This document shows, one piece after another, positions 39,533-58,762 of a stretch of 60,270 nucleotides of DNA (position 1 is its first letter; the number at the start of each line of letters is the position of its first letter). The position numbers were made by a program, and so were the translations under genes. A model generated the notes under the pieces. That model worked only from the letters and a program-made list of their open reading frames with translations, made no database searches and was not told the DNA's origin. The stretch lies in UHGV virus genome UHGV-0335561. The stretch is one strand, 5' to 3'. The stretch is from a virus.

Positions 39533-39810
39533 TGTGTTACTCCCGTCTGGTGTGTCAGTTCGGCTATTCTCTTATCCAGTTCAGCAATGGCCCGTTTATC
39601 CGCGTTACAGGTTTCCAGTGCATCCAGAAGGCGGTCGCCCCATATTCCGAGGTTTCCCCATGTGGGTGGGTCAGGGAAGGGGGGAGGCGTTACCGGCATG
39701 GTCAGCGTCTGCGGTATAAGCCGGACTGACGGCGCTGGCCCTGGCGCGTTCTGCGTGCCTGCGCAACCTGTCAGTAAAACGAGCGTCAGGCAAAGCGTGG
39801 GCGCATTCAT
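39529..39810 (-). CDS. o-spanin (LysC-like outer-membrane lipoprotein)
   Basis: MNAPTLCLTLVLLTGCAGTQNAPGPAPS... lipobox, Pro-rich; overlaps the i-spanin 3' end. Confidence 0.75.
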   Translation of the reverse strand: MNAPTLCLTLVLLTGCAGTQNAPGPAPSVRLIPQTLTMPVTPPPFPDPPTWGNLGIWGDRLLDALETCNADKRAIAELDKRIAELTHQTGVTQ

Positions 39811-44486: not shown

Positions 44487-46238
44487 ATGATTCAGGACGC
44501 TTTTGTGCGCCAGCGTGCGCGGCAACTTTACTGGCAGGGTTATCCGCCCGCAGAAATATCACGTCTGATGGGAATAAACCCGAACACGATTTATGCGTGG
44601 AAAAAACGTGACCAGTGGGATGAAACGCCACCCGTGCAGCGTGTCACGCAGTCCATCGATGCGCGCCTCATCCAGCTTACTGAAAAACAGAATAAAACAG
44701 GCGGTGACTTTAAGGAAATAGACCTGCTGACCCGGCAGCTTAAAAAGCTGCATGATGGCCAGCCGGATGTGATGGCCGCAGGAAAGAAAGGCCGGGCGAA
44801 AAAACTCAAAAATCATTTCACGCCGGAACAGATTGCCGCACTGCGGGAAAAAATCATCAGCAGGCTGGAGTGGCATCAGCGGGGCTGGTTTGACTCCCTG
44901 ACCCTTTGCAGGGAAGCCGGGATACGTAACAGGATGATCCTGAAATCCCGACAGATTGGGGCGACCTGGTATTTTGCACAGGAAGCACTGCTGATGGCGC
45001 TGCGTGACGATGTGGCGCAACCTTACCAGCGTAACCAGATTTTTTTGTCTGCGTCGCGTCGTCAGGCGTTCCAGTTTAAAAGCATTATTCAGAAGGCCGC
45101 GGCTGAAGTTGATGTGGAGCTGAAAGGGGGCGATAAAATCATCCTCTCCAACGGCGCAGAGCTGCATTTTCTCGGCACTTCTGCTGCGTCGGCACAGTCC
45201 TATACGGGCAATTTTTATTTTGATGAATTTTTCTGGGTCAGTCGCTTTGCTGAACTGCGCAAGGTGGCTGGCGCTATGGCAACCCTCAGCGGACTGCGGC
45301 GCACCTACTTCTCCACGCCATCCACCGAAACGCACGAGGCATACGCCTACTGGAACGGCGACCGCTGGAACGAGAAAAAGGCCTCGCATAAACGCCAGCG
45401 TTTTTCTGTGGACTGGAAAACGCTGCATAATGGGCTTATCTGCCCTGACCGGACGTGGCGGCAAATTGTCACGCTGGAAGATGTGGTTAATCACGGCTGG
45501 AAACACACCGATATCGACGAAATTCGTGATGAAAACACCGAAGACGAGTTCCTCAATCTCTATATGTGTGAGTTTGTCCGCGAAGGGGAATCGGCATTTA
45601 ACCTGAATATCCTGATTGGCTGCGGTGTTGACGGATACGACGACTGGAAAGACTGGAAACCTTTTGCTCCCCGCCCGATGGGGAATCGTCCGGTATGGAT
45701 TGGGTATGACGCAAACGGCAGTAGTGGCAACGGCGACAGCGGCGCTGTGTCCGTGGTGGTTCCTCCGGCTGTTCCTGGCGGCCGTTTTCGAACGGTGGAG
45801 ACGCGACGCGTTCAGGGGCTGGAGTTTGAAGAACAGGCCAGAGTCATTGAAGAGTTCACGTGTCGCTACAACGTGGAACACATCGGCATTGATGTGACGG
45901 GCGGGAACGGGGAGGCTGTTTATCAGATAGTGAAGCGGTTTTTCCCTGCTGCTATTCCGTACACCTTCACGCTGTCATCAAAACGGTCGCTGGTACTGAA
46001 AATGCTGCAAATAATGCGTGCCGGGCGGTGGGAATACGATCGCGCCGAACGCGAGCTGGTCGCGGCCTTTAACGCCGTGCGTAAGGTGAAAACACCGGGC
46101 GGCTTTATCACTTACGAAACGGACCGCGCGAGGGGGATCAGCCACGGCGACCTTGCGTGGGCAACCATGCTTGCTGTCATTAACGAACCAATTGGCGGCG
46201 AAGGAGAAAACGAGCGTTTCATGGTTATGGAGTTCTGA
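44487..46238 (+). CDS. P: terminase ATPase (large) subunit (P2 gpP family)
   Basis: 583 aa; Walker A-like KSRQIGAT. Confidence 0.88.
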   Translation: MIQDAFVRQRARQLYWQGYPPAEISRLMGINPNTIYAWKKRDQWDETPPVQRVTQSIDARLIQLTEKQNKTGGDFKEIDLLTRQLKKLHDGQPDVMAAGKKGRAKKLKNHFTPEQIAALREKIISRLEWHQRGWFDSLTLCREAGIRNRMILKSRQIGATWYFAQEALLMALRDDVAQPYQRNQIFLSASRRQAFQFKSIIQKAAAEVDVELKGGDKIILSNGAELHFLGTSAASAQSYTGNFYFDEFFWVSRFAELRKVAGAMATLSGLRRTYFSTPSTETHEAYAYWNGDRWNEKKASHKRQRFSVDWKTLHNGLICPDRTWRQIVTLEDVVNHGWKHTDIDEIRDENTEDEFLNLYMCEFVREGESAFNLNILIGCGVDGYDDWKDWKPFAPRPMGNRPVWIGYDANGSSGNGDSGAVSVVVPPAVPGGRFRTVETRRVQGLEFEEQARVIEEFTCRYNVEHIGIDVTGGNGEAVYQIVKRFFPAAIPYTFTLSSKRSLVLKMLQIMRAGRWEYDRAERELVAAFNAVRKVKTPGGFITYETDRARGISHGDLAWATMLAVINEPIGGEGENERFMVMEF

Positions 46239-47284
46239 TGAGCAGAAAAAATAAAAAAGTGCGCATGAGTTCACGCATTGATCTCGCTGATGCGCTCAGG
46301 AAAGAATCATCGCTCAGTGCATTCACATTTGATGGTCCTTATCGCCTGACCGGGCATGACCTGCTGGACAATATGTACTGTGCTGATAACGGGCGGTGGT
46401 ATGAAACCCCGGTGGACTGGTACGGTCTGGCAAGAGCAGCCCGGCAAACGTCCTGGCATCAGTCTGCGCTTTACTTTAAGCGCAATGTATTACTCGGTTG
46501 CTACATCCCGCACCCGCTGCTTTCCCGGCAGGATTTCTCGGCGCTGGCGCTGGACTGGTTTGTGTTCGGTAACGCATTCCTTGAGCTTCGAAGCAATATG
46601 CTCGGCGAACCGCTTAAATTACGGCACGCCCTGGCGAAATACATGCGACGCGGAAGCGATCTTGAATCATGGTGGTATGTGCAGGATGGCAAGGACGCGT
46701 TTCAGTTTCGTCCTGGCAAAGTGTGCCACCTGATGAATCCGGATATTAACCAGGAAATCTACGGCATGCCGGAATATCTTGGCGCATTACTCTCGGCCAG
46801 CCTTTCTCATTCGGCGGACATGTTCAGAAAACTGTACTACGACAACGGATCCCACGCCGGGTGCATCATCTACATCGGTGCAGCGCAGGTAAACCGCGAA
46901 AGCATGGACTCCCTGAAAGAAACGCTACAGGGGGCACGTGGTGGTGGTGCGTTTAAAAACGTGCTCATTCATGCGCCCAACGGGGGCAAAGAGGGGGTGC
47001 AAATTTTGCCGTTCCAGCAGATCACCGCAAAAGATGAATTCATGAATGTTAAGGCGGCATCCCGTGATGATGTGCTGGCTGCGCACCGCGTTCCGCCGCA
47101 ACTGATGGGGGCGATGCCGGGCGAAAAAAGTGCGTTTGGCGATGTGGAGAAGGCAGCGCGGGTTTACGCAATTAACGAGCTGATGCCCGTTATGGAGGCT
47201 ATGAAGCACATCAATGACTGGCTTGGCGAAGAGGTGATCCGTTTTAACTCTTATGCTCTTCTTGATGAAAAAACAGCCCCGTGA
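46238..47284 (+). CDS. Q: portal protein (P2 gpQ family)
   Basis: 348 aa; start overlaps P stop. Confidence 0.85.
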   Translation: MSRKNKKVRMSSRIDLADALRKESSLSAFTFDGPYRLTGHDLLDNMYCADNGRWYETPVDWYGLARAARQTSWHQSALYFKRNVLLGCYIPHPLLSRQDFSALALDWFVFGNAFLELRSNMLGEPLKLRHALAKYMRRGSDLESWWYVQDGKDAFQFRPGKVCHLMNPDINQEIYGMPEYLGALLSASLSHSADMFRKLYYDNGSHAGCIIYIGAAQVNRESMDSLKETLQGARGGGAFKNVLIHAPNGGKEGVQILPFQQITAKDEFMNVKAASRDDVLAAHRVPPQLMGAMPGEKSAFGDVEKAARVYAINELMPVMEAMKHINDWLGEEVIRFNSYALLDEKTAP

Positions 47285-47300
47285 TGGGGCTGTCCTTTTT
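47268..47300. terminator. bidirectional terminator between convergent Q and the 174-aa gene
   Basis: acagccccgtgatggggctgt hairpin with T run after and A run before. Confidence 0.65.
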
Positions 47301-47823
47301 ACCAGAGTTGAACCATTTTCTGGGTGCCGTCAGGCTTGAGATTATCAATTTCAGAGAGAACGTAATATTGAATGGCTTCACAAACGGTGGTGTAGGGTGA
47401 ATTACCTTCTTTAAGTGGCACGATATTATTATTAACGCGAACCTGTATTTCATCGTTATACATTGCGATCGAAACAGGAGTGTGCACGAACGCGACTTCG
47501 CCAGGTGTGTCGTCAACCACCGTTTCAATACTAAAAGTCAGTTTTCGCTCATCATTGCTGCCCCGTGCTTTGGGGGTAGCGGCAGGGATCTGGGATAAAG
47601 GCATTCTGCGAAATCCTTCGGCTGCTTCCAGTCCGCATGAAACGTAATGCTGGCGATTACCGTCGCTATCTGTCCAGGTCTGTGATGGCAGCTCCAGCGA
47701 GATTTCATAAGCATCAACAATGCCCTGGGCAAGGCGTACAAGCGGGGTCAGATCTTCATTGCGGCGAAAGCTCTCCTTTACCTGCTCCCGTTTTTCTCTT
47801 AACTGCTTGTAATTAATGACCAT
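47299..47823 (-). CDS. hypothetical 174-aa protein at the cos-proximal edge of the cargo locus
   Basis: GGAGG RBS 7 nt upstream of ATG (MVINYKQLREKREQVKESF...); own terminator; no TM; no family recognised. Confidence 0.6.
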   Translation of the reverse strand: MVINYKQLREKREQVKESFRRNEDLTPLVRLAQGIVDAYEISLELPSQTWTDSDGNRQHYVSCGLEAAEGFRRMPLSQIPAATPKARGSNDERKLTFSIETVVDDTPGEVAFVHTPVSIAMYNDEIQVRVNNNIVPLKEGNSPYTTVCEAIQYYVLSEIDNLKPDGTQKMVQLW

Positions 47824-48368
47824 AAGACAGCCTCCATTGATTTCTTTGCTCGTATTTTGCACTTATGAAGTATGGTCGGCAAGGTGCCGTATCGCTGACG
47901 CGCTTCGCTTGTCTGCTGCTTCGCCGGGGCATAAAAAATTTATGCCCCGGCTCTCCAGCTCCTGTATCAATCAGATAATTTCACGACGCCTTCCAGTTTA
48001 TCGCCACCATCGACGGTCAGACTCTTACGCAATTCCACCGCGTTGACTGCATGTTCTCGCTGCCTCAGTGCGATTTTGACGGCCTTACCTTTCACCCCAT
48101 CAAATCAAAAGCCCTCACGCCTTTTTCATGCTCAGCGTGAGAAATATGGCCATTCTGTTGTGTCTCTGCGACATCGTTCAGGGAATGCTATTTACCCCCT
48201 GAAACGCGGGCTGTTCCCCCGTCACCTGCGCGCAGAAAAAGCGCGTTTTTTTGTGCACGCACGGATCCTTGACGGATCCAGCCGCCATGCGGGCCGGAAG
48301 GGTAAAAAGTCGTTCAAAAAAATTGTGCAAATTTGTGCACTTTTGTGCAGGTAAGCATGCCTATATAT

Positions 48369-48397
48369 TTGACCGTGGCTTGCCTTTGATGTAGTTT
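48369..48397 (+). promoter_or_regulatory. putative sigma70 promoter (TTGACC, 17 bp, TAGTTT) preceded by three TTGTGCA repeats at 10-bp spacing
   Basis: aattgtgcaaatttgtgcacttttgtgcag upstream of the -35/-10 pair. Confidence 0.35.
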
Positions 48398-48449
48398 ATA
48401 CGTCACAAAAACCACAAAACGTGGTTATGATTTCTATGAGGGGGTTGAT

Positions 48450-48485
48450 ATGAAAAAAATGTATGATGAATTTGATGGTTTCTAA
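48450..48485 (+). other. leader mini-ORF (11 codons, MKKMYDEFDGF) with strong RBS, just upstream of a terminator
   Basis: GAGGGGG RBS 5 nt upstream of ATG; stop about 20 nt before the hairpin. Confidence 0.35.
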
Positions 48486-48503
48486 GCTACGTTGACCTCT
48501 AAT

Positions 48504-48534
48504 GAGGCGGGGATTTGCTCCCCGCCTTTTTTAT
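48504..48534 (+). terminator. rho-independent terminator/attenuator 13 bp upstream of the first cassette gene
   Basis: gaggcgggga-tttgc-tccccgcc followed by tttttt. Confidence 0.7.
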
Positions 48535-48546
48535 GGATGAAATAGG

Positions 48547-49044
48547 ATGAACCCAATAACACTACAAATCATCAGCAATGCTATTGTTCTGCTTGGCGTT
48601 TTGGTTGCCATTGGAACCATTATCTACAATGTGCGTACCGCAAAAAAAACTCAAACGGCCAACTTTCTTTTTGAGAGTCGGCAAGATATGCAATATATAG
48701 AGTCATTGCATACCCTGAAACAAGTGCATCGTTCAGGCAAATCATTTCGTTCTTATGTTTTTCCTTGTGATGGTTGCATAATAACAGATGAAGAAATGGC
48801 CGAGCGTCGAAAATTTCAATATATTTTAAATTTTTACGAGCGAGTTGCTGTAAGTATTCGTGAAGGTATTTATGATGAAAAAATGATAAAAAGAACATCT
48901 TACACAACAGTTGTAGAGACATATGATATTGCCGAGCCATTAATTAAAGCAATCAGAGAAAGCATTAATTCGGATACTACATATCAAGAATTCGAATGGT
49001 TAGTAAGAAGATGGAAAGCTAATCCTTTACGGAAAAACAAATAA
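48547..49044 (+). CDS. hypothetical membrane-anchored protein (single N-terminal TM plus about 135-aa soluble domain), AT-rich
   Basis: 165 aa MNPITLQIISNAIVLLGVLVAIGTIIYNV...; visibly lower GC than flanks. Confidence 0.7.
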   Translation: MNPITLQIISNAIVLLGVLVAIGTIIYNVRTAKKTQTANFLFESRQDMQYIESLHTLKQVHRSGKSFRSYVFPCDGCIITDEEMAERRKFQYILNFYERVAVSIREGIYDEKMIKRTSYTTVVETYDIAEPLIKAIRESINSDTTYQEFEWLVRRWKANPLRKNK

Positions 49045-49083
49045 TGTTTTACCCTTTAATTTACAAGTAACACAGGGGGAAGT

Positions 49084-49926
49084 GTGACACAGAATCCGTT
49101 TTCATTTTATGACTTTTTGGGCTATCTAATTCCAGGTGGGTTATTCCTGTTTATCCTTTTTTTGTTTTCTATTGAAATTAACCCTGTTTATATAGAAGGT
49201 ATTCTTAACCATATCCTGAAATATAAAGAAATAATAAGTGTATTTATATATGTGGTATTAATCGTTCTATCATATATTTCAGGTCACTTCATATCTATTC
49301 TATCATCCTGTTTAATTGAAAAATACATGAACAGTAAACTTGGGTATCCTTCAATTTATCTGTTTTCTAAAAGAAGCTCCCTGAAAATAAAACGACATAA
49401 TACTAAGTTCAGTATAGTTAATTTTATTCGTGGAGTTTTTTTATTTCCTGTATCAGCTTTTGATAAAGCAGAACATCATAAAACCACACTGCATTCTATA
49501 CTTATTAAAGTCTTTTGGCCGCAAATACGAGATGGTTATATAAATGTTTTTTCTGTATCTACGCTATATCGACGTAAGGGCTTGAGGGGCGATCTTTTTC
49601 GCCTTGCTTATCATTATGTGTATGAACATTCTAAAAATCATCAGGTGAAAATGCAAAACTATGTTGCTTTGTATGGTTTTTGTAGAAACATTACATTTGT
49701 TTTTCTCGCTTCAGTCTGGTTGCTTATGTTCCTGCTCCTTCTATCCTTTTTAATAGATATAAATATCAGACTGTTACCTTTTTGTTTTCTTCTCTTGTTT
49801 TGTATTGCTGCATCCCGAGTATTTTATTATGGTTTTGTTAAGTATTATCGCCGCTATTCTCTTGAGGTTTTAATGGCATTTGCGGTACTTCAGCACGATA
49901 AAAAAACTTCGGCAATTTCATCATGA
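49084..49926 (+). CDS. hypothetical polytopic membrane protein (4-5 predicted TM helices), AT-rich
   Basis: 280 aa; hydrophobic segments at about 10-30, 50-72, 196-222, 224-250; purine-rich RBS region. Confidence 0.7.
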   Translation: MTQNPFSFYDFLGYLIPGGLFLFILFLFSIEINPVYIEGILNHILKYKEIISVFIYVVLIVLSYISGHFISILSSCLIEKYMNSKLGYPSIYLFSKRSSLKIKRHNTKFSIVNFIRGVFLFPVSAFDKAEHHKTTLHSILIKVFWPQIRDGYINVFSVSTLYRRKGLRGDLFRLAYHYVYEHSKNHQVKMQNYVALYGFCRNITFVFLASVWLLMFLLLLSFLIDINIRLLPFCFLLLFCIAASRVFYYGFVKYYRRYSLEVLMAFAVLQHDKKTSAISS

Positions 49927-49942
49927 TTTGAAACATTGGCAC

Positions 49943-49970
49943 CCTGTTAGCAAGGGTGCCAGAATGATGT
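49943..49970. terminator. hairpin between the convergent membrane cassette and parR
   Basis: ggcaccct-gttagca-agggtgcc. Confidence 0.55.
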
Positions 49971-50009
49971 GTTGGTCTGTATTTTATTAGTTCACATACA
50001 ATTATCAGA

Positions 50010-50324
50010 TTATTCTGGGAATAAGGTCTGAATATTCTTTTTTATTTTATAAAAATTGCATTCAACTCCGCTAGGCTGATTATCCTGGTATGTTTCCTTG
50101 ATGCTAACGGTATTGAAGGGGAGGTTGTCCTCTGGCCATTCGGCCATCCAGTAGGCAAATGCTGGGTTGCGCTTTATGAGCGCTAGCCCAGCCAGAAAGG
50201 CCGCGCGTTGCGCGCGGCTGCGTTCGGAGGCTGGCAGGCTATCGAGGTAATTGCACGCCTCCTGTTCACTCTTGACGGCGGCGGGCTTCAGATAGAAACT
50301 TATCCGTCTGGTTGGTGTCGTCAT
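50010..50324 (-). CDS. parR: ParR-like centromere-binding protein (type II partition, ribbon-helix-helix)
   Basis: 104 aa; RRISFYLKPAAVKSEQEACNYLDSLPASERSRAQRAAFLAGLALIKRNP resembles plasmid R1 ParR as I recall it; AAGGAG RBS. Confidence 0.75.
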   Translation of the reverse strand: MTTPTRRISFYLKPAAVKSEQEACNYLDSLPASERSRAQRAAFLAGLALIKRNPAFAYWMAEWPEDNLPFNTVSIKETYQDNQPSGVECNFYKIKKNIQTLFPE

Positions 50325-50328
50325 TGGT

Positions 50329-51288
50329 TTACTCCTTGTCCATTGCGTACAGCCCATTAACCAGAGCAAACTGTGGCACCCCGTCCGCGATGAAAGTCGC
50401 ATTAACTCCGCAGACTTCGCGGATAGCGGGTGCCACAATCTCCGCCCCTCCACCGACAACCATCACCCGCCCGTAACCCGAAAAAACCGCCAGCGCGCGG
50501 ATCACGCGTTGTTTCAGTGTTTCTTCCTTTTCACGAATAACCGCCATCAGGCTGGCGTAATGCGCGTCATTGTGGATGTGCTGGCGCAGCCAGGCTTCAT
50601 CATGGCGATGTTCGATAATGGTATTGGCGATGTGGTGACTGGTGCGCATACCGTTAGTGGCCATCACCGACAGTACGGCATCGGCCATCAGGGAAACGCC
50701 TACGTGTGGATCGCAAAACACCTGGCTGATACCTGCCAGTTGCCCTTGAACCTTTGCCACATCCAGCGTGGTTCCGCCTAAATCCACAATCAGCAGGGAT
50801 TCAAACGGACTCATGTCAGCCAGTGCTTTAAAGCCAGCCGGAATGGATTCAGGCATAACCCGCACGTTACGGATAGTGAATGCTTCGCCGTTCTGGTATT
50901 CCACCGGGCGCATAACGTTCGCTTTTTTGCGGTTGATGTTGGCCATGTCCGGCTGTGCGTTTGTGTCGAAATACTCGCTCAGTGGCAGGGTGACAACCAC
51001 ATCCACCTCCTGTGGCGTGATGCCTGATTTGACCAGCGCGTGATGAATGGCGATTACATTCACATCGCTGTACTGGTATTGCGTGTCGGTCGTCTGGACA
51101 AAGCGATCGCTAACCGGATCAAAACCATAGCGCACGCCATCAAGCATGTAGTTCGCGGGCTGCATGCCACCGAACGGCGCAGACCATTCCGACTTGAAGC
51201 TGTTCGGGCTGATGGCGTTGCGGCGTTCGCCATTCTCAGTCCATGCCAGCTTGATGTTGGTGGAGCCGTCGTCGATACAAATTTTCAT
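50329..51288 (-). CDS. parM: ParM/StbA-family actin-like segregation ATPase
   Basis: 319 aa; MKICIDDGSTNIKLAW...ISPNSFK.EW...YSDVNVIAIHHAL... motifs of R1 ParM. Confidence 0.85.
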   Translation of the reverse strand: MKICIDDGSTNIKLAWTENGERRNAISPNSFKSEWSAPFGGMQPANYMLDGVRYGFDPVSDRFVQTTDTQYQYSDVNVIAIHHALVKSGITPQEVDVVVTLPLSEYFDTNAQPDMANINRKKANVMRPVEYQNGEAFTIRNVRVMPESIPAGFKALADMSPFESLLIVDLGGTTLDVAKVQGQLAGISQVFCDPHVGVSLMADAVLSVMATNGMRTSHHIANTIIEHRHDEAWLRQHIHNDAHYASLMAVIREKEETLKQRVIRALAVFSGYGRVMVVGGGAEIVAPAIREVCGVNATFIADGVPQFALVNGLYAMDKE

Positions 51289-51304
51289 GTCGCTTTTCCT
51301 TATG

Positions 51305-51440
51305 TTGATTAATTAATCGTTTACGGGATTCTGAAATCCCGTTTTTGCCTGTTTTGTGCGCGCTTCATATATCGCTGCGCGTTTTTTGCTCATTTACGGG
51401 ATTCGTAAGTCCCGTTTCTGTCTGTTTTTTGTTTCCACTG
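51305..51440. repeat. two direct repeats of about 45 bp, each with an internal palindrome (ACGGGATT...AATCCCGT), upstream of parM; putative parC-like centromere/operator
   Basis: cgtttacgggattctgaaatcccgtttttgcctgtttt and tcatttacgggattcgtaagtcccgtttctgtctgtttt; the second copy overlaps the last codons of A. Confidence 0.55.
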
Positions 51441-54187
51441 GTCAGGCCACCCCGCAGCAGGTCTGCTTTGCGGCTGGCGCGTTCAGTGGTTTCACTGATT
51501 CTCTGTGCGTGCTCTGCGTCGCGGATGGCGCGCAGCATGTCAGAAAGCACGGTAACGGGTGTTTTCATGGTGTTCTGGCCCTGCTGAAGTGTGGATGCCA
51601 GGCGTGCGGCGGCTTCAGGGTCTGATGCCCCCAGCTGTGCCAGATAGCTGGCGACCGGGTTATGGCGGATCTCCGTGCTGCTTACGCCATGATTACGGCT
51701 CAGGCGCTGCCAGAGCTGCGTGATTCGGCTGTCCGGGCGGGTATCCGGTTTGCGTACAATTTCAAATCCCTGCGGTGCAATGATGCTGCCGTCAACGTAC
51801 AGACTGCCGCCCCGTAACAGGTGCTGCATCTGTTGTTCACCGATATGCAGGCCGAGAGATTCAGCAGACTCCCGCCATTCTTTAGCGAGTAATTCGTGGT
51901 TATCAGGCAAAGGCCGCTGCTGTTTGCGGCTCTGTGTCCAGCTCTGCATTTCATCGCTGCTGTTTTTTGCCTGTTTGTCACGAAGCGAACGCATCAGCGC
52001 CCGGCGTTCGTGTCGTTTCAGTGAGCGCATCCATTCGTTCACTTCAACGCCGTCAGGGAGCTGCGGCCACGGTGCTGGCCGTTCTTCCGGCTGTTCTGTC
52101 CCGTTGTTGTCCGTTTCCTGTACACGGGGACAGTTATTGCCACGAGTCCAAGGGGCGGCAGGGCCGCCCTGAAGGTCAAAACCATTTTCGCGGGCGCTGT
52201 CTTCCGCTTCCGGTTTACGTCTTACCAGCTTCCAGTTATCCGGATGCGTGCACACACGGGAGGATTCCCCGATGAGTGGTGACCAGATCCCGTAAATCTG
52301 TACGCTCTGTTCGCCGTAATCGTTCAGCTCATCTGCGAGGTCGTAGGCGGTGCGAATCAGGTAGTCCTTGCGTGGAACAAGCACGCCACCCTGTTTTTCA
52401 ATGTAGGTGGCAAAACACCCGGCATCGGCGGCAGCGAGTACCGCATCCATTGCATCATCTTTCAGCCGTTGCGGGCCTTCCGGATTGCGTGCCATCTGGC
52501 TGGCAAGGCGGCGCAGTTCACGCCACACCTGACGGGAGGGGATGCCAAAGAACTGGAACTGACGGACCCGGTGAAGGCGCGCCCAGCCGATGGCGCGCTC
52601 CACGCTCTCGGCCATTGATTTTCCGGTTTCGTGGTCCACGCGTGGCTTGCCCGTTTTCGGGTCGATGCCATCCACGGCGCGGCTGTCCAGGTTCTTTCCG
52701 ATGTAGGTGGCGATGTAGCTGGTTGGCGTGCCTTTTGAGCCGTCGACATACTCCACCTTAAAGCGCGGAGTAATATCATTGCCCAGCTCGTGGCGGTCTT
52801 CCTGAATGGCAATATCGCGGGTATGGGACACAATGGTGTCGATTTCTTCCGGATGTGCAAAGACCATCATATGCCAGTGCACGGTGCCGTCATGATGAGG
52901 CTCCACCGTGCGGATGCCATACCAGCGCAGGCCGTCGCGGTTCAGTTTTTTGCGGACCGCCGCAAAAAACGTGTTAACCAGGTAATCGCTGGAGTCGCGC
53001 ATTGTGGCCCCGTTCCATTTGGGATTCGGATGACCGTTCTCCGTTGTGGCGTGGTATTTTGACGGGCAGGTGACAGTCAGAAACACCGCTTTGTCGCCAC
53101 GGGCTTCGGCCAGAAGTTCCAGTCCCTTCATGGTGGCCATCATTTCTGCCTTACGGTGAACCGGGTTACTTACTCCCGCGTAATACACTGTCTCGAGATC
53201 AATCGTGAACCCGTCTTCATTTTCCAGCATGAAACTTTTCAGGAAATCGCGTGTTTTCTCGCGCTGTGCGCGAAACTCGCTTAACGCGTCCTGGCTCAGA
53301 TAGGGTGATGTTTTTCTGGAAACCAGACAGGCGGCGCGGAGTTGTTCTTCTCTCCACTCGCAACGTAACAGCCACAGTTTGCGTTTCCACCATTCCGCAC
53401 AGGTCAGGCGAAGGATTGCGCCCGGCAGCAGCTCCGTGTCCGGTTCGTTCCTCCGGTCTTTGTCTGTTGTCAGTGCGTCATAATGTGGAGGCATGGCGTG
53501 CAGGTGTAACGCCATGCGGGCCAGCATCTGATACGCCTTCAGGGTTACATCCATGGTCAGCTCGCCATCGGTCGCGCCAAAGCCATCGCAGAGTTTTTCG
53601 AAGGTGCTGCTGAACATCGCCGCCGTCATGGTGGCCAGCGTCTGTATCTGGTGTTTGTTGAGCTGCGGCAGGTAAAGCAAATCGTCCAGGCGTTCGCGTC
53701 CGGCAAGGGAGCGATAACCCGGTGTCAGCCAGCGTCCGTCAGTGCTATCCAGACGTTCGAATATTTTGCGCAGGGTTCCGCGTGCATAGCGTTCCGCCTG
53801 CCAGCTCTTTTTGCCTTTCCGGCGATCGGCTTCCTGTTTTTTGCGCAGGAAGGAGAGGTGGCGAATAAGCGGATCGCGCAGATAGGACGGCAGCAGGCGC
53901 AGCGAGGCCATGGCTTCATCCACCGCGCCACGTGCCTGTTTTCTGGCGTCTCCTGCCAGTGTGATGGTTTTGTCCTGTTTTTCCTGTGCGTCCAGGCTTT
54001 TATTAATCAGGTTGCCCAGCGGCGTGGCTGAGAACGCCGCATCAGCCATTTCCTGGCGGCGCTCGTTCTCTGCCCGGTAGGCATCCAGCCAGGAGGAAAG
54101 CGCGGATTCAGGAGCGGGGATCCCCGTTCCTTCACGCCCCACTGCGTGGCGCGGTTGTTGCCAGTCCCTGAGGTACTCTGCCGTCAT
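51365..54187 (-). CDS. A: replication initiation endonuclease (P2 gpA-family rolling-circle initiator)
   Basis: 940 aa; P2/186 A-like domains; position in the early operon. Confidence 0.85.
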   Translation of the reverse strand: MTAEYLRDWQQPRHAVGREGTGIPAPESALSSWLDAYRAENERRQEMADAAFSATPLGNLINKSLDAQEKQDKTITLAGDARKQARGAVDEAMASLRLLPSYLRDPLIRHLSFLRKKQEADRRKGKKSWQAERYARGTLRKIFERLDSTDGRWLTPGYRSLAGRERLDDLLYLPQLNKHQIQTLATMTAAMFSSTFEKLCDGFGATDGELTMDVTLKAYQMLARMALHLHAMPPHYDALTTDKDRRNEPDTELLPGAILRLTCAEWWKRKLWLLRCEWREEQLRAACLVSRKTSPYLSQDALSEFRAQREKTRDFLKSFMLENEDGFTIDLETVYYAGVSNPVHRKAEMMATMKGLELLAEARGDKAVFLTVTCPSKYHATTENGHPNPKWNGATMRDSSDYLVNTFFAAVRKKLNRDGLRWYGIRTVEPHHDGTVHWHMMVFAHPEEIDTIVSHTRDIAIQEDRHELGNDITPRFKVEYVDGSKGTPTSYIATYIGKNLDSRAVDGIDPKTGKPRVDHETGKSMAESVERAIGWARLHRVRQFQFFGIPSRQVWRELRRLASQMARNPEGPQRLKDDAMDAVLAAADAGCFATYIEKQGGVLVPRKDYLIRTAYDLADELNDYGEQSVQIYGIWSPLIGESSRVCTHPDNWKLVRRKPEAEDSARENGFDLQGGPAAPWTRGNNCPRVQETDNNGTEQPEERPAPWPQLPDGVEVNEWMRSLKRHERRALMRSLRDKQAKNSSDEMQSWTQSRKQQRPLPDNHELLAKEWRESAESLGLHIGEQQMQHLLRGGSLYVDGSIIAPQGFEIVRKPDTRPDSRITQLWQRLSRNHGVSSTEIRHNPVASYLAQLGASDPEAAARLASTLQQGQNTMKTPVTVLSDMLRAIRDAEHAQRISETTERASRKADLLRGGLTSGNKKQTETGLTNPVNEQKTRSDI

Positions 54188-56584: not shown

Positions 56585-56827
56585 TCATGCGATATTCCCC
56601 AGCTTATACGGTTCAATATGTTCCCCGCATTCTGCGGCACAGATCAGCTCGGAAAGTTCGTTAAGTGCATCCAGATCATCAGCGTAAAAAGCCACGTCAT
56701 ACAGACTCCGGATTGCCCTGGTCAATGAGTCACGGGCTGCACGTTCAGCATGAGCGCCTGATGCACTTAAGCGAAAATAAAAACGCTCAAGTGCTTTGTT
56801 AATGAGAGTTTTATATTCTTTGCCCAT
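56585..56827 (-). CDS. hypothetical early-operon protein (80 aa)
   Basis: Internal Met start MGKEYKTLINKALERF... Confidence 0.45.
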   Translation of the reverse strand: MGKEYKTLINKALERFYFRLSASGAHAERAARDSLTRAIRSLYDVAFYADDLDALNELSELICAAECGEHIEPYKLGNIA

Positions 56828-56838
56828 CGCAACGCCCT

Positions 56839-57117
56839 TTAATCTGCTTTCTGAATTTCTGCTTCTGAATCCATACAAATAATTTCGATATAGGGTTCAT
56901 CGCCATTAGTCTTACGTGCTTTTTCCGCTTCGCTAATGATTTCGTGTACAGTCTGGTACGGAAGTTCTACGGTCAGGCGCGTGCCGTTCAGATAAACGTA
57001 AGTAGCTGCATTTTTTTCGGATGGAACAACTCCGTCAATGGCTGATGCGCGTAATAACAGTTCACCGCGAAAATCAATAAAACGGATAAATACACCTTGT
57101 GCATGCTCTTTGGTCAT
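56839..57117 (-). CDS. hypothetical early-operon protein (92 aa)
   Basis: MTKEHAQGVFIRFIDFRGELLL... Confidence 0.45.
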   Translation of the reverse strand: MTKEHAQGVFIRFIDFRGELLLRASAIDGVVPSEKNAATYVYLNGTRLTVELPYQTVHEIISEAEKARKTNGDEPYIEIICMDSEAEIQKAD

Positions 57118-57127
57118 AAAGCACCTG

Positions 57128-57478
57128 TTATAAATCAGCCTGTTTAATAAAACTTTGCCCGTGAAGCAGACGATCAACCGTGCGAAGTGCTTCGTATAAT
57201 GTGAAATCCTGCCCGAACTGATTGTCGCCGTTGCTCAGTGCAAAAATGCGGTTTCCGGTAAATGGGTTGCGCTGGCATCTGTGAACCACGATTCCTGCTT
57301 TTTCAATCAGCCAAGTGTGTTCACCAATTTGTTTTACTGGGTAGCCATCCGGCGTTGCGTGTGTTTCGCTCAGGCTGTAGCGAGAGTTGCTACGTGATGC
57401 ACTGGTAGCGAAACGGTTAGCATGGCGTTCCGCACCGTTGCGGAAGCGCTGCTGTGAAGAATTGCGCTGTAGTTTCAT
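57128..57478 (-). CDS. hypothetical early-operon protein (116 aa)
   Basis: Same-strand ORF. Confidence 0.45.
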   Translation of the reverse strand: MKLQRNSSQQRFRNGAERHANRFATSASRSNSRYSLSETHATPDGYPVKQIGEHTWLIEKAGIVVHRCQRNPFTGNRIFALSNGDNQFGQDFTLYEALRTVDRLLHGQSFIKQADL

Positions 57479-57615
57479 ATTAAAACTCTGTACCTTCGGT
57501 AAGGTGTACTCGTGTCACCTTGTATTGATTTGTGGTATTTTTTTTGTGTGTCTAGGACTTGGACTGGCCGGTTCAGGTCCTGGCTTATGTTTAATTAAAT
57601 TGTTAAGAGGTTTTC

Positions 57616-57807
57616 ATGTCAGAAGATAAAAAAGTTGTTAATTTGTTGAGTGAACTTAGTGCTGCTCTGGATAACATTAACCCTCCCAGGGTAAAAACGA
57701 CGGGTGATAAAGACGCATTAAACACAGAGATTCATATATTACTGGCGTTAGTAACTGACAAAATTCAGCGTAAATACCCACCTGTCACACAACTGGTTGA
57801 TTTTTAA
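57616..57807 (+). CDS. hypothetical 63-aa protein, opposite orientation within the early region
   Basis: AAGAGG RBS 7 nt upstream of ATG; convergent with the 140-aa gene. Confidence 0.5.
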   Translation: MSEDKKVVNLLSELSAALDNINPPRVKTTGDKDALNTEIHILLALVTDKIQRKYPPVTQLVDF

Positions 57808-57813
57808 TTTGAT

Positions 57814-58236
57814 TTATGCCGGGCTGCTCCCGGCATCTTCTAGCTGCCATAATGTCTCGTCACCTGATAGAGCAAAACGAAATGAGTGAAGTATATCCCC
57901 CCGAGAGAAGCTCACGGCTACAGCTGCGGGAAAGTCAAATATAATCCCACCTTCATTTTTAAAACGATTACGCAATTGATAGGCTATCGGTTTGATTTGT
58001 GCAGGAAGAGTATCTATATCTCTTCCATTGACAACAGAATCTTTGTTTTCAAGTACTGATTTAGCGATTAGATATAGATGCCAGTAACTGGTTACAATTG
58101 TTACTCCTGTGATGTGTCGTAAATTAATTGCAATTCGTCCGTTATTATGTTTTTCCGCAAGGTATTTCAGGTTATCAATTAATGCTTGGTCATTTTTTGA
58201 AATAGTTATTGTGAAATCTGACGTGTTTGTTTTCAT
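57814..58236 (-). CDS. hypothetical 140-aa protein, relatively AT-rich
   Basis: Internal Met start just after the upstream stop; track ORF 57814-58479 extends into the upstream gene. Confidence 0.5.
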   Translation of the reverse strand: MKTNTSDFTITISKNDQALIDNLKYLAEKHNNGRIAINLRHITGVTIVTSYWHLYLIAKSVLENKDSVVNGRDIDTLPAQIKPIAYQLRNRFKNEGGIIFDFPAAVAVSFSRGDILHSFRFALSGDETLWQLEDAGSSPA

Positions 58237-58240
58237 ACGA

Positions 58241-58762
58241 TTAGTTGCCTCTGTTGTTTCTGAGTTGGTCCAGTTTTGAGCTTCTGCCTGTATAAACTCG
58301 CTTACCGTTAATGGTCTGGCAGTCTTCTTTATTAGCTGGAGAGAACTTCCTTTTCTGGCGGTCATACGTCCAGTAACTTTTCCAGTTGTGCCATTCTGGG
58401 GGCTCGTGCTCTGGTAGCTCATCAGCCAACTTGTCCCACTCTTTGGCGTTAAACCACCATACTCCGTCTGAGTTTTCATCTTCCGGGTTTGTGCGCGTCT
58501 TGTGTCCCGGCATTTGACCGCGATGAATGGCTACGCGCAGTGCAGATTTTGTTAGCCCAATATATGCCGCGCCTTTTTCCAGAGAGCAAAGCCCGGCGAT
58601 CGGACCATCCAGCCGCAAAGTCGCTCCTTTTTTGTAGGAACGCTTTTTCTTGTTTTCTTCGTGCTCGTCGTCGTTGGCGGCATCAATGGATCCGCTGAGT
58701 GCGTCACTTTCCTGAAGTGGTTGGTGGTCAGATAACTCTTTATCGGCAATGAAGTCCCGCAT
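58241..58762 (-). CDS. first early-operon gene: AlpA/Cox/Apl-like HTH regulator (putative excisionase/early regulator) with acidic N-terminus
   Basis: 173 aa; LRLDGPIAGLCSLEKGAAYIGLTKSALRVAIHRGQMPGHK HTH; divergent from the repressor gene. Confidence 0.6.
   Translation of the reverse strand: MRDFIADKELSDHQPLQESDALSGSIDAANDDEHEENKKKRSYKKGATLRLDGPIAGLCSLEKGAAYIGLTKSALRVAIHRGQMPGHKTRTNPEDENSDGVWWFNAKEWDKLADELPEHEPPEWHNWKSYWTYDRQKRKFSPANKEDCQTINGKRVYTGRSSKLDQLRNNRGN

What the first reader, a model, noticed from the sequence alone, without database searches (positions are those of the whole stretch)
47285..51365. Whole Q-to-A interval is a composite cargo island replacing old/tin
About 4 kb between portal and replication genes carries three unrelated modules of differing GC (orphan gene, AT-rich membrane pair, parMR), each with its own terminators and in mixed orientation. 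That is the signature of serial cargo insertion at a hotspot rather than a conserved phage operon.
Basis: inference. Interest (0 to 1): 0.6.

Follow-up and report, generated by a model that had tools for sequence, protein, structure and literature searches.

The report
Known P2-phage cargo hotspot, dissected
The 4 kb between the portal and replication genes of this E. coli ST131 P2-family prophage is the already published variable "hotspot" beside the phage packaging site. It is ordinary as a hotspot, but one cargo gene (DUF4760) has an unreported conserved regulatory leader and an unexpected structural resemblance to a plant immune domain.

Summary
Window 47285-51365 contains a narrow-family gene (47% GC), an AT-rich two-gene cassette (34% GC, the lowest in the window, z = -5.7) and parMR (50-55% GC), in mixed orientation.

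The Q-A interval is the cos-proximal diversity/defence hotspot of P2-like phages (Rousset 2022). That paper's Table S5A lists this exact five-protein arrangement with the same WP accessions.

Refinements:
- The interval is not one island. A conserved packaging (cos) block (48193-48350) splits it into two cargo slots.
- parMR, with a repeated palindrome next to gene A, is lineage backbone of P88-like phages (ParM at least 95% identical in all 14 phage records). It is not recent cargo.
- The "pair" is two genes that each occur alone in other prophages.
- No trace of old or tin exists, so "replacing" is positional only.
- No known defence family matches the cargo.

New leads:
- Every DUF4760 gene examined carries a conserved leader peptide (…FDEFDGF-stop) followed by a terminator.

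The parts
46238..47284 (+). gpQ portal gene (left flank of the interval)
   Evidence: PF04860 8.3e-18; 47% identical to P2 Q; annotated as phage portal protein in JJ1886
47273..47293 (.). Bidirectional hairpin shared by convergent Q and orf174
   Evidence: Terminator-like site: 9-bp stem followed by a T-run
47299..47823 (-). orf174 (187 aa from an upstream GTG). Narrow-family gene that occupies the Q|cos slot.
   Evidence: No Pfam, PADLOC or NCBIfam hit; phrog_5091, function unknown. Only 19 protein clusters, from E. coli, Salmonella and Trabulsiella. Present or absent among otherwise near-identical phages. dN/dS 0.06. Found in 397 of 5,426 E. coli genomes.
47923..47951 (.). Perfect 13-bp-stem hairpin in the block conserved among P88-like phages
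   Evidence: Inverted repeat I10, 100% complementary; lies inside the 47895-48349 block, which is 93-94% identical in P88, Chuche and L029
48193..48350 (.). Conserved cos-proximal block. It contains the invariant GGGCTGTTCCCCCGTCACCTGCGCGC (48208-48233, candidate cohesive-end site) and TTGTGCA repeats (48250-48256 and 48323-48349). Cargo begins at 48350/48351.
   Evidence: 70-80% identity to about 30 P2-like prophages of other genera, always ending at 48349/50. Invariant columns in a 15-locus alignment. Same position as cos in P2. The P2 19-mer itself is absent, so the cos assignment is an inference.
48402..48431 (+). Promoter-like site upstream of the DUF4760 leader
   Evidence: Consensus scan, 9 of 12 matches. 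This is a weak call: the number of such sites in the region is no higher than in shuffles.
48451..48486 (+). Leader mini-ORF MKKMYDEFDGF* with the Shine-Dalgarno sequence GAGGGGG
   Evidence: Conserved peptide C-terminus (F/Y)DE(F/Y)D(G/W)F-stop upstream of DUF4760 in 7 of 7 loci fetched by protein homology. 30 of 36 viral contigs that carry the coding motif have a DUF4760 ORF downstream. The differences are mostly synonymous.
48504..48528 (+). Intrinsic terminator (candidate attenuator) between the leader ORF and DUF4760
   Evidence: 10-bp stem plus T-run. At least four different stem sequences in relatives all keep complementarity and the T-run. No Rfam family matches. IS421 is inserted in its 3' arm in some genomes.
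48547..49044 (+). DUF4760 protein, 165 aa, with an N-terminal membrane anchor and a helical domain
49084..49926 (+). 280-aa all-helical membrane protein (about 4 TM helices plus a central soluble part)
49938..49960 (.). Hairpin between the convergent cassette and parR, without a clear U-tract
   Evidence: Read directly from the sequence; not called by the terminator scan
50010..50324 (-). parR (StbB-type adaptor), a mosaic allele. The AT-rich tract runs into its last ~25 codons.
   Evidence: PF10784 1.9e-28. 53-56% identical to the P88-type ParR although ParM is 97-99% identical. N-terminal domain in two allele types, hypervariable linker, conserved NIxxxFPE tail. GC falls below 0.5 up to about 50080.
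50329..51288 (-). parM, actin-like segregation ATPase
   Evidence: PF06406 2.7e-82 and PF21523 1.1e-68. E = 1e-92 to R1 ParM structures. dN/dS 0.07-0.14. At least 95% identical in all 14 P88-like phage records.
51317..51431 (.). Two 42-nt direct repeats (51317-51358 and 51390-51431), each with the palindrome ACGGGAyTy..rAAtCCCGT. Candidate parC. The second copy lies inside the 3' end of gene A.
   Evidence: Repeat family D1, spacing 73 nt; conserved in all seven P88-like loci whichever ParR allele they carry. Function is inferred.
51365..54187 (-). gpA replication endonuclease (right flank of the interval)
   Evidence: PF05840 4.9e-131; 31% identical to P2 A

Best explanation
Window 47285-51365 is the cos-proximal variable region of a P88-like (Xuanwuvirus, P2 family) prophage integrated next to serS in an E. 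coli ST131-type chromosome. It has four functionally separate parts.

1. A presence/absence slot between the end of Q and cos. Here it holds orf174, a narrow-family gene of unknown function.
2. A conserved, cis-acting packaging block (candidate cos plus TTGTGCA repeats). It must be kept, and it sets a sharp left edge for cargo at 48350.
3. The fast-swapping slot between cos and parR. Here it holds a foreign, AT-rich cassette made of two genes, DUF4760 and a 4-TM protein, that travel separately elsewhere. I infer it is transcribed from its own promoter through a leader-peptide/terminator attenuator.
4. parMR, with a two-copy palindromic repeat that straddles the end of gene A. This is backbone of the P88 lineage and lies at the distal end of the early (cox-to-A) transcription unit.

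Inferred steps:
- Cargo is exchanged by homologous recombination between related phages in the conserved flanks (Q 3' end, cos block, parR). This would explain the sharp left edge, the ragged right edge inside parR and the absence of flanking repeats.
- The cassette is most likely a lysogenic-conversion module that excludes other phages at the membrane (superinfection exclusion or abortive infection).
- ParMR most likely partitions the excised or replicating circular phage genome rather than maintaining a plasmid prophage.
For: Identity and hotspot:
- 100% identity to ST131 genomes and to P88-like phages.
- Complete prophage map from serS to int.
- Published hotspot, with the identical arrangement and WP accessions.
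- Q-to-A intervals in 45 other loci range from 0.8 to 5.7 kb and 33-54% GC. They hold methylases, toxin-antitoxin modules, Fic, HEPN, GmrSD, AAA_15 and others.

Boundaries:
- The conserved block ends at 48349/50 in all lineages.
- Homology with the P88 group resumes at 50125-50270, inside parR. ParR is a mosaic.
- No flanking direct or inverted repeats.
- A 3' remnant of DUF4760 is left in two Symbiopectobacterium loci.

Independent assortment of modules.

Cassette:
- Lowest GC in the window.
- Each gene occurs alone as a moron in other prophages.
- In a diverged copy of the pair, DUF4760 has dS 0.04 and its partner 0.28.
- All genes are under purifying selection.
- The leader and terminator are conserved with compensatory stem changes.

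parMR:
- Bona fide R1-type ParM.
- Linked to the P88-type gpA and distinct from plasmid ParMs (about 53% identity).
- 1,720 chromosomal places against 2 plasmid places.
- Repeats conserved.
- Same strand as A, with no terminator in that direction.
- Precedents from the literature: SXT/R391 SrpMRC partitions an excised ICE (PMC4489591), and CGP3 AlpAC supports prophage DNA replication (PMC4446434).
Against: - No cargo protein matches any known defence family (PADLOC v2: none, apart from a weak Csx27 hit that probably reflects composition). Rousset 2022 did not test this arrangement: DUF4760 is absent from their Table S2. The defence role is therefore inference from location and protein type.
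- cos is inferred from conservation and position. The P2 19-mer is absent and no virion-end data were available.
- The candidate parC has only two repeats, unlike the ten iterons of R1.
- A 34.5-kb circular 'plasmid' record that is a whole P88-like genome exists, so a plasmid state cannot be excluded.
- The promoter call is no better than chance.
- No antiterminator structure was identified, so the logic of the attenuator is unknown.
Confidence: 0.8

Rival explanations
1. One reading: all three modules, parMR included, are independent cargo inserted one after another at a single hotspot, displacing an ancestral old/tin locus.
For: Modules differ in GC and orientation. The interval is the same one that holds old/tin in P2. 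Rousset 2022 also counts the partition system among hotspot contents. parMR is absent from distant P2-like phages, so it was acquired at some point.
Against: parMR is fixed in the P88 lineage, always abuts A, has one repeat copy inside the A coding sequence, is only about 53% identical to plasmid ParM, and has a GC and GC3 like the phage backbone. The interval is split by the conserved cos block into two slots. There is no old, tin or orf91 remnant anywhere.
Confidence: 0.12
2. DUF4760 and the 4-TM protein form a genuine two-component anti-phage system. DUF4760 is a membrane-anchored sensor and the 4-TM protein is a membrane-disrupting effector, acting by abortive infection.
For: The genes are adjacent, 39 nt apart, on the same strand with no terminator between them. 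The pair is retained in a diverged copy (L080) and in 289 genomes. It lies in a validated defence hotspot where TM proteins are proposed effectors. The DUF4760 fold resembles a small-molecule-sensing immune domain.
Against: Each gene occurs alone in many other prophages, and the pair is seen only in the E. coli P88-like lineage. The two genes have different divergence in L080. No PADLOC match. Untested experimentally.
Confidence: 0.25
3. ParMR lets this phage persist as a low-copy plasmid prophage (a phage-plasmid lifestyle), as Rousset et al. suggested.
For: A complete R1-type ParM/ParR with upstream repeats, under purifying selection. One 34,461-bp circular 'plasmid' record is an entire P88-like genome. 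The suggestion is in the literature.
Against: 1,720 of 1,722 places in complete E. coli genomes are chromosomal. The phage keeps integrase, cox and a defined site next to serS. A circular assembly can simply be excised or replicating phage DNA.
Confidence: 0.15
4. The mini-ORF plus hairpin upstream of DUF4760 is not regulatory. It is either a fossil 3' end of an earlier gene or an ordinary terminator that insulates the cassette from cos-side transcription.
For: The hairpin is a canonical terminator. No antiterminator was found. A ribosome at the stop codon would end about 7 nt short of the stem (my estimate from the 17-18 nt spacing).
Against: The mini-ORF has its own strong Shine-Dalgarno sequence and ATG in every copy. 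Its peptide C-terminus is conserved through synonymous changes, while the hairpin sequence is free to change. The unit accompanies DUF4760 in P2-like, lambdoid and chromosomal contexts. The only room for a promoter is upstream of the terminator, because just 12-20 nt separate the T-run from the DUF4760 start codon.
Confidence: 0.15

Closest known systems
P2 cos-proximal Q-A hotspot (old/tin locus), Rousset et al. 2022, Cell Host Microbe (PMC9122126); Moura de Sousa et al. 2026, NAR (PMC13586616)
   Same: Same position between gpQ and gpA next to the packaging site, and the same behaviour: many alternative gene sets among related phages. This exact gene set (WP_001068329, WP_000686485, WP_000211282, WP_000193205, WP_000236495) is in their Table S5A.
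   Different: None of the cargo here matches a validated or catalogued defence family. Here the interval resolves into two slots plus a lineage-fixed partition operon, a distinction those surveys do not draw.
R1 plasmid ParMRC type II partition system
   Same: ParM matches R1 ParM structures at E = 1e-92. ParR belongs to the StbB/Plasmid_stab_B family. Gene order is parM-parR, with repeats upstream of parM.
   Different: It is chromosomally integrated in a prophage. The candidate centromere is two 42-nt units with 20-bp palindromes rather than ten 11-bp iterons (my knowledge of R1 parC). One unit lies inside gene A. It is about 53% identical to the closest plasmid ParM.
SrpMRC of SXT/R391 ICEs (PMC4489591) and AlpAC of the Corynebacterium prophage CGP3 (PMC4446434)
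   Same: Actin-like partition modules carried by elements that normally sit integrated in the chromosome and act on the excised or replicating form (abstracts seen).
   Different: No experiment exists for P88-like phages. AlpC is only distantly related to ParM. Homology to SrpM was not tested here.
EP domain (PF18117) of the plant immune proteins EDS1, PAD4 and SAG101
   Different: 7-12% identity, no sequence or profile signal, and Foldseek E-values of 0.3-1. DUF4760 has a membrane anchor and no lipase-like domain. No TIR gene is nearby. EP domains are described as having no structural homologues outside the EDS1 family (PMC6377607). This is a resemblance, not membership.
Ribosome-dependent transcription attenuators (e.g. 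pyrBI and pheA leaders, ARE-ABCF and erm leaders; my knowledge)
   Same: A short ORF with a Shine-Dalgarno sequence, followed by an intrinsic terminator immediately upstream of the regulated gene.
   Different: The peptide sequence, rather than codon content, is conserved (FDEFDGF-stop). No alternative antiterminator pairing was identified. No Rfam family matches. The inducing signal is unknown.
Prophage morons and superinfection-exclusion membrane proteins (e.g. P22 SieA/SieB, lambda RexB; my knowledge)
   Same: Small membrane proteins, AT-rich relative to the phage, with their own promoter and terminator, placed at accessory positions of several prophage types.
   Different: No sequence or fold relationship to any of them was found. 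Function untested.

Membership tests
P2-like cos-proximal diversity/defence hotspot (Rousset 2022) | Located between the portal gene gpQ and the replication gene gpA | tested here: met
   Pfam Phage_portal and Phage_GPA on the flanks; Q-to-A synteny in about 45 loci
P2-like cos-proximal diversity/defence hotspot (Rousset 2022) | Gene content differs among closely related phages | tested here: met
   P88, PhiR44_2, Chuche, TW10590 and DEC5E carry different cargo with near-identical flanks. Genome counts are 279, 297, 397 and 1,453.
P2-like cos-proximal diversity/defence hotspot (Rousset 2022) | Directly adjacent to the cos packaging site | tested here: inconclusive
   The conserved block at 48193-48350, with an invariant GC-rich 26-mer and TTGTGCA repeats, is where P2 has cos. 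However, the P2 cos 19-mer is absent and no virion-end data were available.
P2-like cos-proximal diversity/defence hotspot (Rousset 2022) | Cargo is an anti-phage system | not testable with these tools
   No PADLOC family matches; the arrangement is not among the systems cloned by Rousset; a plaque assay is needed
Type II ParMRC partition system | Actin-like ParM ATPase | tested here: met
   PF06406 and PF21523; E = 1e-92 to 1mwk and 4a62
Type II ParMRC partition system | ParR adaptor encoded downstream of parM | tested here: met
   PF10784 1.9e-28, phrog_2515; 4-nt gap after parM
Type II ParMRC partition system | Repeated centromere (parC) upstream of parM that is bound by ParR | tested here: inconclusive
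   Two conserved 42-nt repeats with palindromes. Binding was not testable, and there are fewer repeats than in R1.
Type II ParMRC partition system | Resides on, and stabilises, an extrachromosomal replicon | tested here: not met
   1,720 chromosomal against 2 plasmid places. One 34.5-kb circular record exists.
Known anti-phage defence families (PADLOC-DB v2) | Significant HMM match of the cargo proteins | tested here: not met
   orf174: none. DUF4760: none. The 280-aa protein has only a Csx27 hit at 1.1e-5.
EDS1-family EP domain (PF18117) | Fold-level similarity of the helical domain | tested here: met
   [not shown]
EDS1-family EP domain (PF18117) | Sequence or profile membership | tested here: not met
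   No PF18117 hit at E up to 1 in 38 family members; no PDB sequence hit
EDS1-family EP domain (PF18117) | N-terminal lipase-like domain and a heterodimer cavity lined by conserved basic residues | tested here: not met
   The 165-aa protein has only a TM anchor before the helical domain. Cavity residues were not examined.
Leader-peptide transcription attenuator | Short translated ORF followed by an intrinsic terminator just upstream of the regulated gene, conserved with the gene | tested here: met
Leader-peptide transcription attenuator | Mutually exclusive antiterminator structure, or demonstrated read-through control | tested here: inconclusive
   Only a 4-bp CCTC/GAGG alternative pairing was seen, by eye, in some copies.
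Transposon- or integron-type insertion | Terminal inverted repeats, target-site duplication or attC-like sites at cassette borders | tested here: not met
   No flanking repeats in 47250-50350

The most novel reading that the evidence does not exclude
DUF4760 is a phage- and bacterium-borne, membrane-anchored relative (or convergent analogue) of the plant EDS1/PAD4/SAG101 EP domain. On this reading it acts as a sensor in a previously unrecognised exclusion system, here coupled to a 4-TM effector. Its expression would be gated by a new class of leader-peptide attenuator (M-K-K-x-FDEFDGF-stop plus terminator) that travels with the gene between P2-like, lambdoid and chromosomal sites.
Probability: 0.1. 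Interest if true: 0.8.

Novelty: already known. Interest (0 to 1): 0.3.

Why it matters
As stated, the finding re-derives from raw sequence a published principle: P2-family phages keep a swap-slot for accessory and defence genes beside cos. It adds no new kind of system. The dissection is useful in three ways.

- It shows that surveys which take everything between gpQ and gpA as "the hotspot" merge three things: a lineage-fixed partition operon, an essential packaging element and two distinct cargo slots. This inflates counts of arrangements.
- It identifies the cargo carried by about 5% of complete E. coli genomes, including the pandemic ST131 clone, as untested and unmatched to any known defence family.
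- It gives two concrete, cheap-to-test leads on DUF4760: a conserved leader peptide/terminator, and an EP-domain-like fold. EP domains are reported to have no structural homologues outside the plant EDS1 family.

Tried and rejected
- P2 cos 19-mer search with up to 3 mismatches, and blastn of the P2 cos junction against 47285-48546: no meaningful match. The TCCCCGCCTC hit is just the leader terminator stem.
- Remnants of P2 old, tin or orf91 by tblastn: none in the window or in any locus.
- PADLOC, NCBIfam and PDB sequence searches for orf174, DUF4760 and the 280-aa protein: nothing usable. The PDB 'hits' of orf174 to designed helical repeats have no passing domain, so I disregard them.
- Rfam on the interval: two sub-threshold hits (caiA, SorX), rejected.
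- Idea that the '1TM' protein of the validated AC1 phage system (2TM + 1TM + TIR, Rousset 2022) is a DUF4760 relative, which would have linked an EP-like fold to a TIR gene: hhalign probability 0.4%, rejected.
- Transposon-like borders of the cassettes: none.
- Literature search for DUF4760 and for prokaryotic EP-like domains: one incidental mention of DUF4760 and no report of EP-like domains outside plants.
- The Csx27 hit of the 280-aa protein is treated as compositional (both are multi-TM proteins). I did not pursue it.

Full report
**What the window is.** The interval 47285-51365 is 100% identical to the chromosomes of many E. coli ST131 strains (JJ1886, EC958 and others) and to the phages vB_EcoM-705R2 and 'Entero_P88'. 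The JJ1886 annotation shows a complete P2-family prophage. It runs from serS (Hok/Gef, ogr) through tail, lysis and head genes, then terminase, portal, this interval, gpA, the early genes, cox, the repressor and the integrase at the window end. The nearest classified relative is Escherichia phage P88 (Peduoviridae, Xuanwuvirus). It is a distant relative of P2 itself: Q is 47% and A is 31% identical.

**The observation.** The ORF list, Pfam and PHROG scans give these genes:
- Q, 46238-47284 (+).
- A 174-aa ORF (187 aa from an upstream GTG), 47299-47823 (-), with no Pfam family.
- DUF4760, 48547-49044 (+).
- A 280-aa helical membrane protein, 49084-49926 (+).
- ParR, 50010-50324 (-).
- ParM, 50329-51288 (-).
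- gpA, 51365-54187 (-).

GC is 0.474 for the ORF, 0.349 and 0.317 for the AT-rich genes, and 0.505 and 0.548 for parR and parM. GC3 is 0.26-0.27 for the AT-rich genes against 0.58-0.64 for the phage genes. The AT-rich block is the lowest-GC 1.65-kb stretch in the 60-kb window (z = -5.7). Terminator-like hairpins are enriched (15 against 5.5 +/- 2.3), but not one per module. Q and orf174 share one. The hairpin between the cassette and parR lacks a U-tract. The hairpins upstream of parM point the wrong way. I therefore count the observation as confirmed with those caveats.

**Is it a hotspot?** I fetched 52 loci that encode relatives of this portal protein from one-genome-per-species collections and mapped the window's proteins onto them.
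- Q followed by an oppositely oriented gpA is universal.
- The interval between them ranges from 0.8 to 5.7 kb and from 33 to 54% GC.
- Its ORFs hit Dam and C5 methylases, YafO, HicAB and ParE toxin-antitoxin modules, Fic, HEPN, GmrSD, AAA_15, EcoRII, UvrD-type helicases and more.
- None of the 45 distant loci has ParM, ParR, orf174 or the 280-aa protein. One (Kluyvera) has DUF4760 alone.

It is, however, published. Rousset et al. 2022 analysed 18,150 Q-A loci in E. coli and found 1,650 arrangements. They noted that about a quarter carry a putative plasmid partition system. [quoted passage not shown] A 2026 NAR paper extends the analysis of rapid swapping at this hotspot.

**The interval is not one island.** blastn against the fetched loci shows that 48193-48350 is conserved at 70-80% in about 30 prophages from other genera. 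In every case the similarity stops at 48349 or 48350. A 15-locus alignment shows an invariant GC-rich block, GGGCTGTTCCCCCGTCACCTGCGCGC (48208-48233), and repeated TTGTGCA motifs. The last three copies are at 48323-48349, immediately before the divergence point.

P2 has cos at the equivalent place, 168 nt from the end of Q, with old and tin on the far side. The P2 19-mer itself is not present. By eye, the invariant block resembles its reverse complement in 11 of 17 positions. I infer that this is the packaging site of this lineage.

The consequence is that orf174 lies on the Q side of cos, while DUF4760, the membrane protein and parMR lie on the A side. These are two different slots, at opposite ends of the packaged linear genome.

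The Q|cos slot is a simple presence/absence. P88, Chuche, TW10590 and L029 go straight from Q to the conserved block. PhiR44_2, a Salmonella prophage, DEC5E and this window have orf174, together with an alternative last three codons of Q.

**Independent assortment.** The counts in 5,426 complete E. coli genomes are:

| Part of the interval | Genomes |
|---|---|
| Any part | 1,453 |
| orf174 block | 397 |
| AT-rich cassette | 297 |
| At least 80% of the whole interval | 279 |

TW10590 has the cassette without orf174. DEC5E has orf174 with other cargo. No direct or inverted repeats flank either cassette. Two Symbiopectobacterium loci retain only the last 100 nt of a DUF4760 gene just after cos. 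Together with the ragged right border described next, this fits replacement by homologous recombination in conserved flanks rather than site-specific insertion. That step is inferred.

**parMR is backbone, not recent cargo.** ParM is a true R1-type ParM (E = 1e-92 to 1mwk and 4a62). Every locus whose gpA is at least 82% identical has parM-parR directly after A, with ParM 97-99% identical. No locus with gpA at or below 57% identity has them.
- All 14 P88-like phage records carry ParM at 95% identity or more. The only other phage hit is the plasmid-prophage D6, at 48%.
- The closest plasmid ParMs are about 53% identical. The exceptions are six records: one whole-phage 'plasmid' and several very large replicons.
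- dN/dS is 0.07-0.14, and GC and GC3 match the phage.
- Upstream of parM are two 42-nt direct repeats 73 nt apart, each with a 20-bp palindrome. One lies in the A-parM spacer and one inside the last 20 codons of A. Both are conserved in seven P88-like loci. They are my candidate parC.
- parM and parR follow A on the same strand with no terminator in that direction, so they probably belong to the early transcript.

**ParR is a mosaic.** Residues 1-65 come in two allele types. Residues 66-96 are hypervariable, with three types among seven loci. The tail NIxxxFPE is conserved. DNA homology with the P88 group resumes only at 50125-50270, and the low-GC tract runs to about 50080, into the last ~25 codons of parR. 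The right edge of the swap region therefore lies inside parR.

**What ParMR does.** 1,720 of 1,722 places are chromosomal, and the phage has int, cox and a fixed site. I therefore favour partition of the excised or replicating circle, by analogy with SXT/R391 SrpMRC and CGP3 AlpAC, over stable plasmid lysogeny. One 34,461-bp circular 'plasmid' record that is an entire P88-like genome keeps the plasmid idea alive.

**The AT-rich cassette is itself composite.** The 280-aa protein has 358 relatives. Apart from an 87% copy, they are 42-48% identical. The contexts I examined are lambdoid prophages, as a single accessory gene after yfdR-like genes or just before xis/int, with no DUF4760 nearby.

DUF4760 relatives (60-88% identical, many Enterobacterales) occur alone in several settings:
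- the Q-A slot of Kluyvera and Xenorhabdus P2-like prophages;
- among the tail genes of Yersinia and Serratia lambdoid prophages;
- after astE on Rahnella chromosomes.

The pair was seen only in the E. coli P88-like lineage. In a diverged copy (L080) DUF4760 is almost unchanged (dS 0.04), while its partner is 13% different in protein sequence (dS 0.28). Both genes are under purifying selection. PADLOC finds nothing except a weak Csx27 match for the membrane protein. Rousset et al. did not clone this arrangement. Location, composition and protein type point to a lysogenic-conversion or exclusion function. That is inference, at perhaps 50-60% confidence.

**A conserved leader upstream of DUF4760.** Between the hotspot edge and DUF4760 lie, in order:
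- a promoter-like site;
- a strong Shine-Dalgarno sequence;
- an 11-codon ORF, MKKMYDEFDGF-stop (48451-48486);
- 17 nt of spacer;
- a 10-bp GC-rich hairpin with a T-run (48504-48528);
- the DUF4760 start, 12 nt after the T-run.

The same layout precedes DUF4760 in all seven loci that I had fetched by protein similarity alone, whatever the genomic context. The peptide ends (F/Y)DE(F/Y)D(G/W)F-stop in every case.

Scanning IMG/VR for the coding motif gave 36 contigs. In 30 of them the motif is followed by a hairpin with a T-run and a DUF4760 ORF (HMM E = 1e-32 to 1e-95). The six exceptions are four with no DUF4760 ORF downstream (one at a contig end), one further contig-end truncation and one IS insertion.

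Third-codon positions vary while the peptide is kept. The hairpin occurs in at least four unrelated sequences that all stay complementary. No Rfam family matches. This looks like a leader-peptide-dependent attenuator that moves with the gene. I could not identify an antiterminator, so the logic is open.

In several genomes IS421 sits in the 3' arm of this hairpin.

**Structure of DUF4760.** The AlphaFold model built on 38 homologues is confident (pLDDT 93.6).
- Foldseek independently ranks EDS1 chains first (TM 0.52-0.56 normalised to the query, probability up to 0.97), with everything else at TM 0.29 or below. Its E-values are only 0.3-1.
- There is no sequence or profile signal.

The plant literature states that EP domains have no significant structural homologues outside the EDS1 family (PMC6377607). 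I treat this as a fold-level resemblance worth a reciprocal test, not as membership. A link to the TIR-containing AC1 system was tested and rejected. The 280-aa protein's model (pLDDT 71.5) has no informative match.

**orf174.** Its family is tiny: 19 clusters from E. coli, Salmonella and Trabulsiella. It has no domain, and dN/dS is 0.06.

**Verdict.** The sequence features are real. The hotspot interpretation is right in outline but already in the literature, down to this arrangement. It needs three corrections: parMR is lineage backbone, cos splits the interval, and old/tin were never demonstrably here. The items that could be new are side observations on DUF4760, namely its leader attenuator and its EP-like fold. 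They deserve follow-up independently of the original claim.

Noticed in passing
window 48440-48546; also L013, L071, L072, L075, L078, L080 and 30 IMG/VR contigs (L084-L119): A conserved 10-11-codon leader ORF ending FDEFDGF-stop, with a strong Shine-Dalgarno sequence, followed by an intrinsic terminator. It precedes every DUF4760 gene examined, in P2-like, lambdoid and chromosomal contexts. Hairpin sequences differ but stay complementary. No Rfam family matches.
   Followed up: yes
[not shown]
   Followed up: partly
about window 48522; L121 1609-2721, L060 3334-4446, L107: IS421 is inserted in the 3' arm of the leader terminator hairpin, just upstream of DUF4760, in several genomes (an ST131 isolate from Armenia, yak strain LS4, AST19 from Japan and one viral contig). 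It would destroy the terminator.
   Followed up: partly
L070 (NZ_CP148288.1, 34,461 bp, circular): A record deposited as an E. coli plasmid is an entire P88-like phage genome (int, cox, A, parMR, Q, P, head, tail). It is either excised phage DNA or a genuine plasmid state.
   Followed up: partly
window 50010-50324: ParR is a mosaic: two N-terminal allele types, a hypervariable linker (three types in seven loci) and a conserved NIxxxFPE tail. The AT-rich foreign tract extends into its last ~25 codons, so the incoming DNA apparently brought its own parR 3' end.
   Followed up: yes
window 48208-48233, 48250-48256 and 48323-48349: An invariant GC-rich 26-mer and four TTGTGCA repeats are conserved across at least 15 genera-level P2-like loci. 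They are probably the cohesive-end site and terminase-binding repeats of a cos type different from P2's.
   Followed up: partly
L011 and L012, 11558-11659: Two Symbiopectobacterium P2-like prophages keep only the last ~100 nt of a DUF4760 gene right after the cos block, a scar of cassette replacement.
   Followed up: partly
L080 231-1610: In a diverged copy of the pair, DUF4760 is nearly identical (dS 0.04) while the adjacent membrane-protein gene is much more diverged (dS 0.28). This implies a recombination breakpoint between the two genes.
   Followed up: yes
window 47923-47951: A perfect 13-bp-stem hairpin (GCCGGGGCATAAA/TTTATGCCCCGGC) without a U-tract, in the block conserved among P88-like phages between Q and the cos core. 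Its role is unknown.
   Followed up: no
L005-L054, A-proximal side of the interval: In many distant P2-like prophages a Dam-type methyltransferase is common among the Q-A interval ORFs (PADLOC MTase_II in 22 of 114 scanned ORFs; Pfam MethyltransfD12 in 11). It may be a lineage-fixed A-proximal gene comparable to parMR here, but its position next to gpA was not checked.
   Followed up: partly
window 37656-39533, 56751-58405 and 21971-22111: Other probable cargo positions in the same prophage: a 625-aa DUF6645 gene between the lysis and tail genes; a 42%-GC stretch in the early region near cox; and a Hok/Gef gene beside ogr at the serS end.
   Followed up: no
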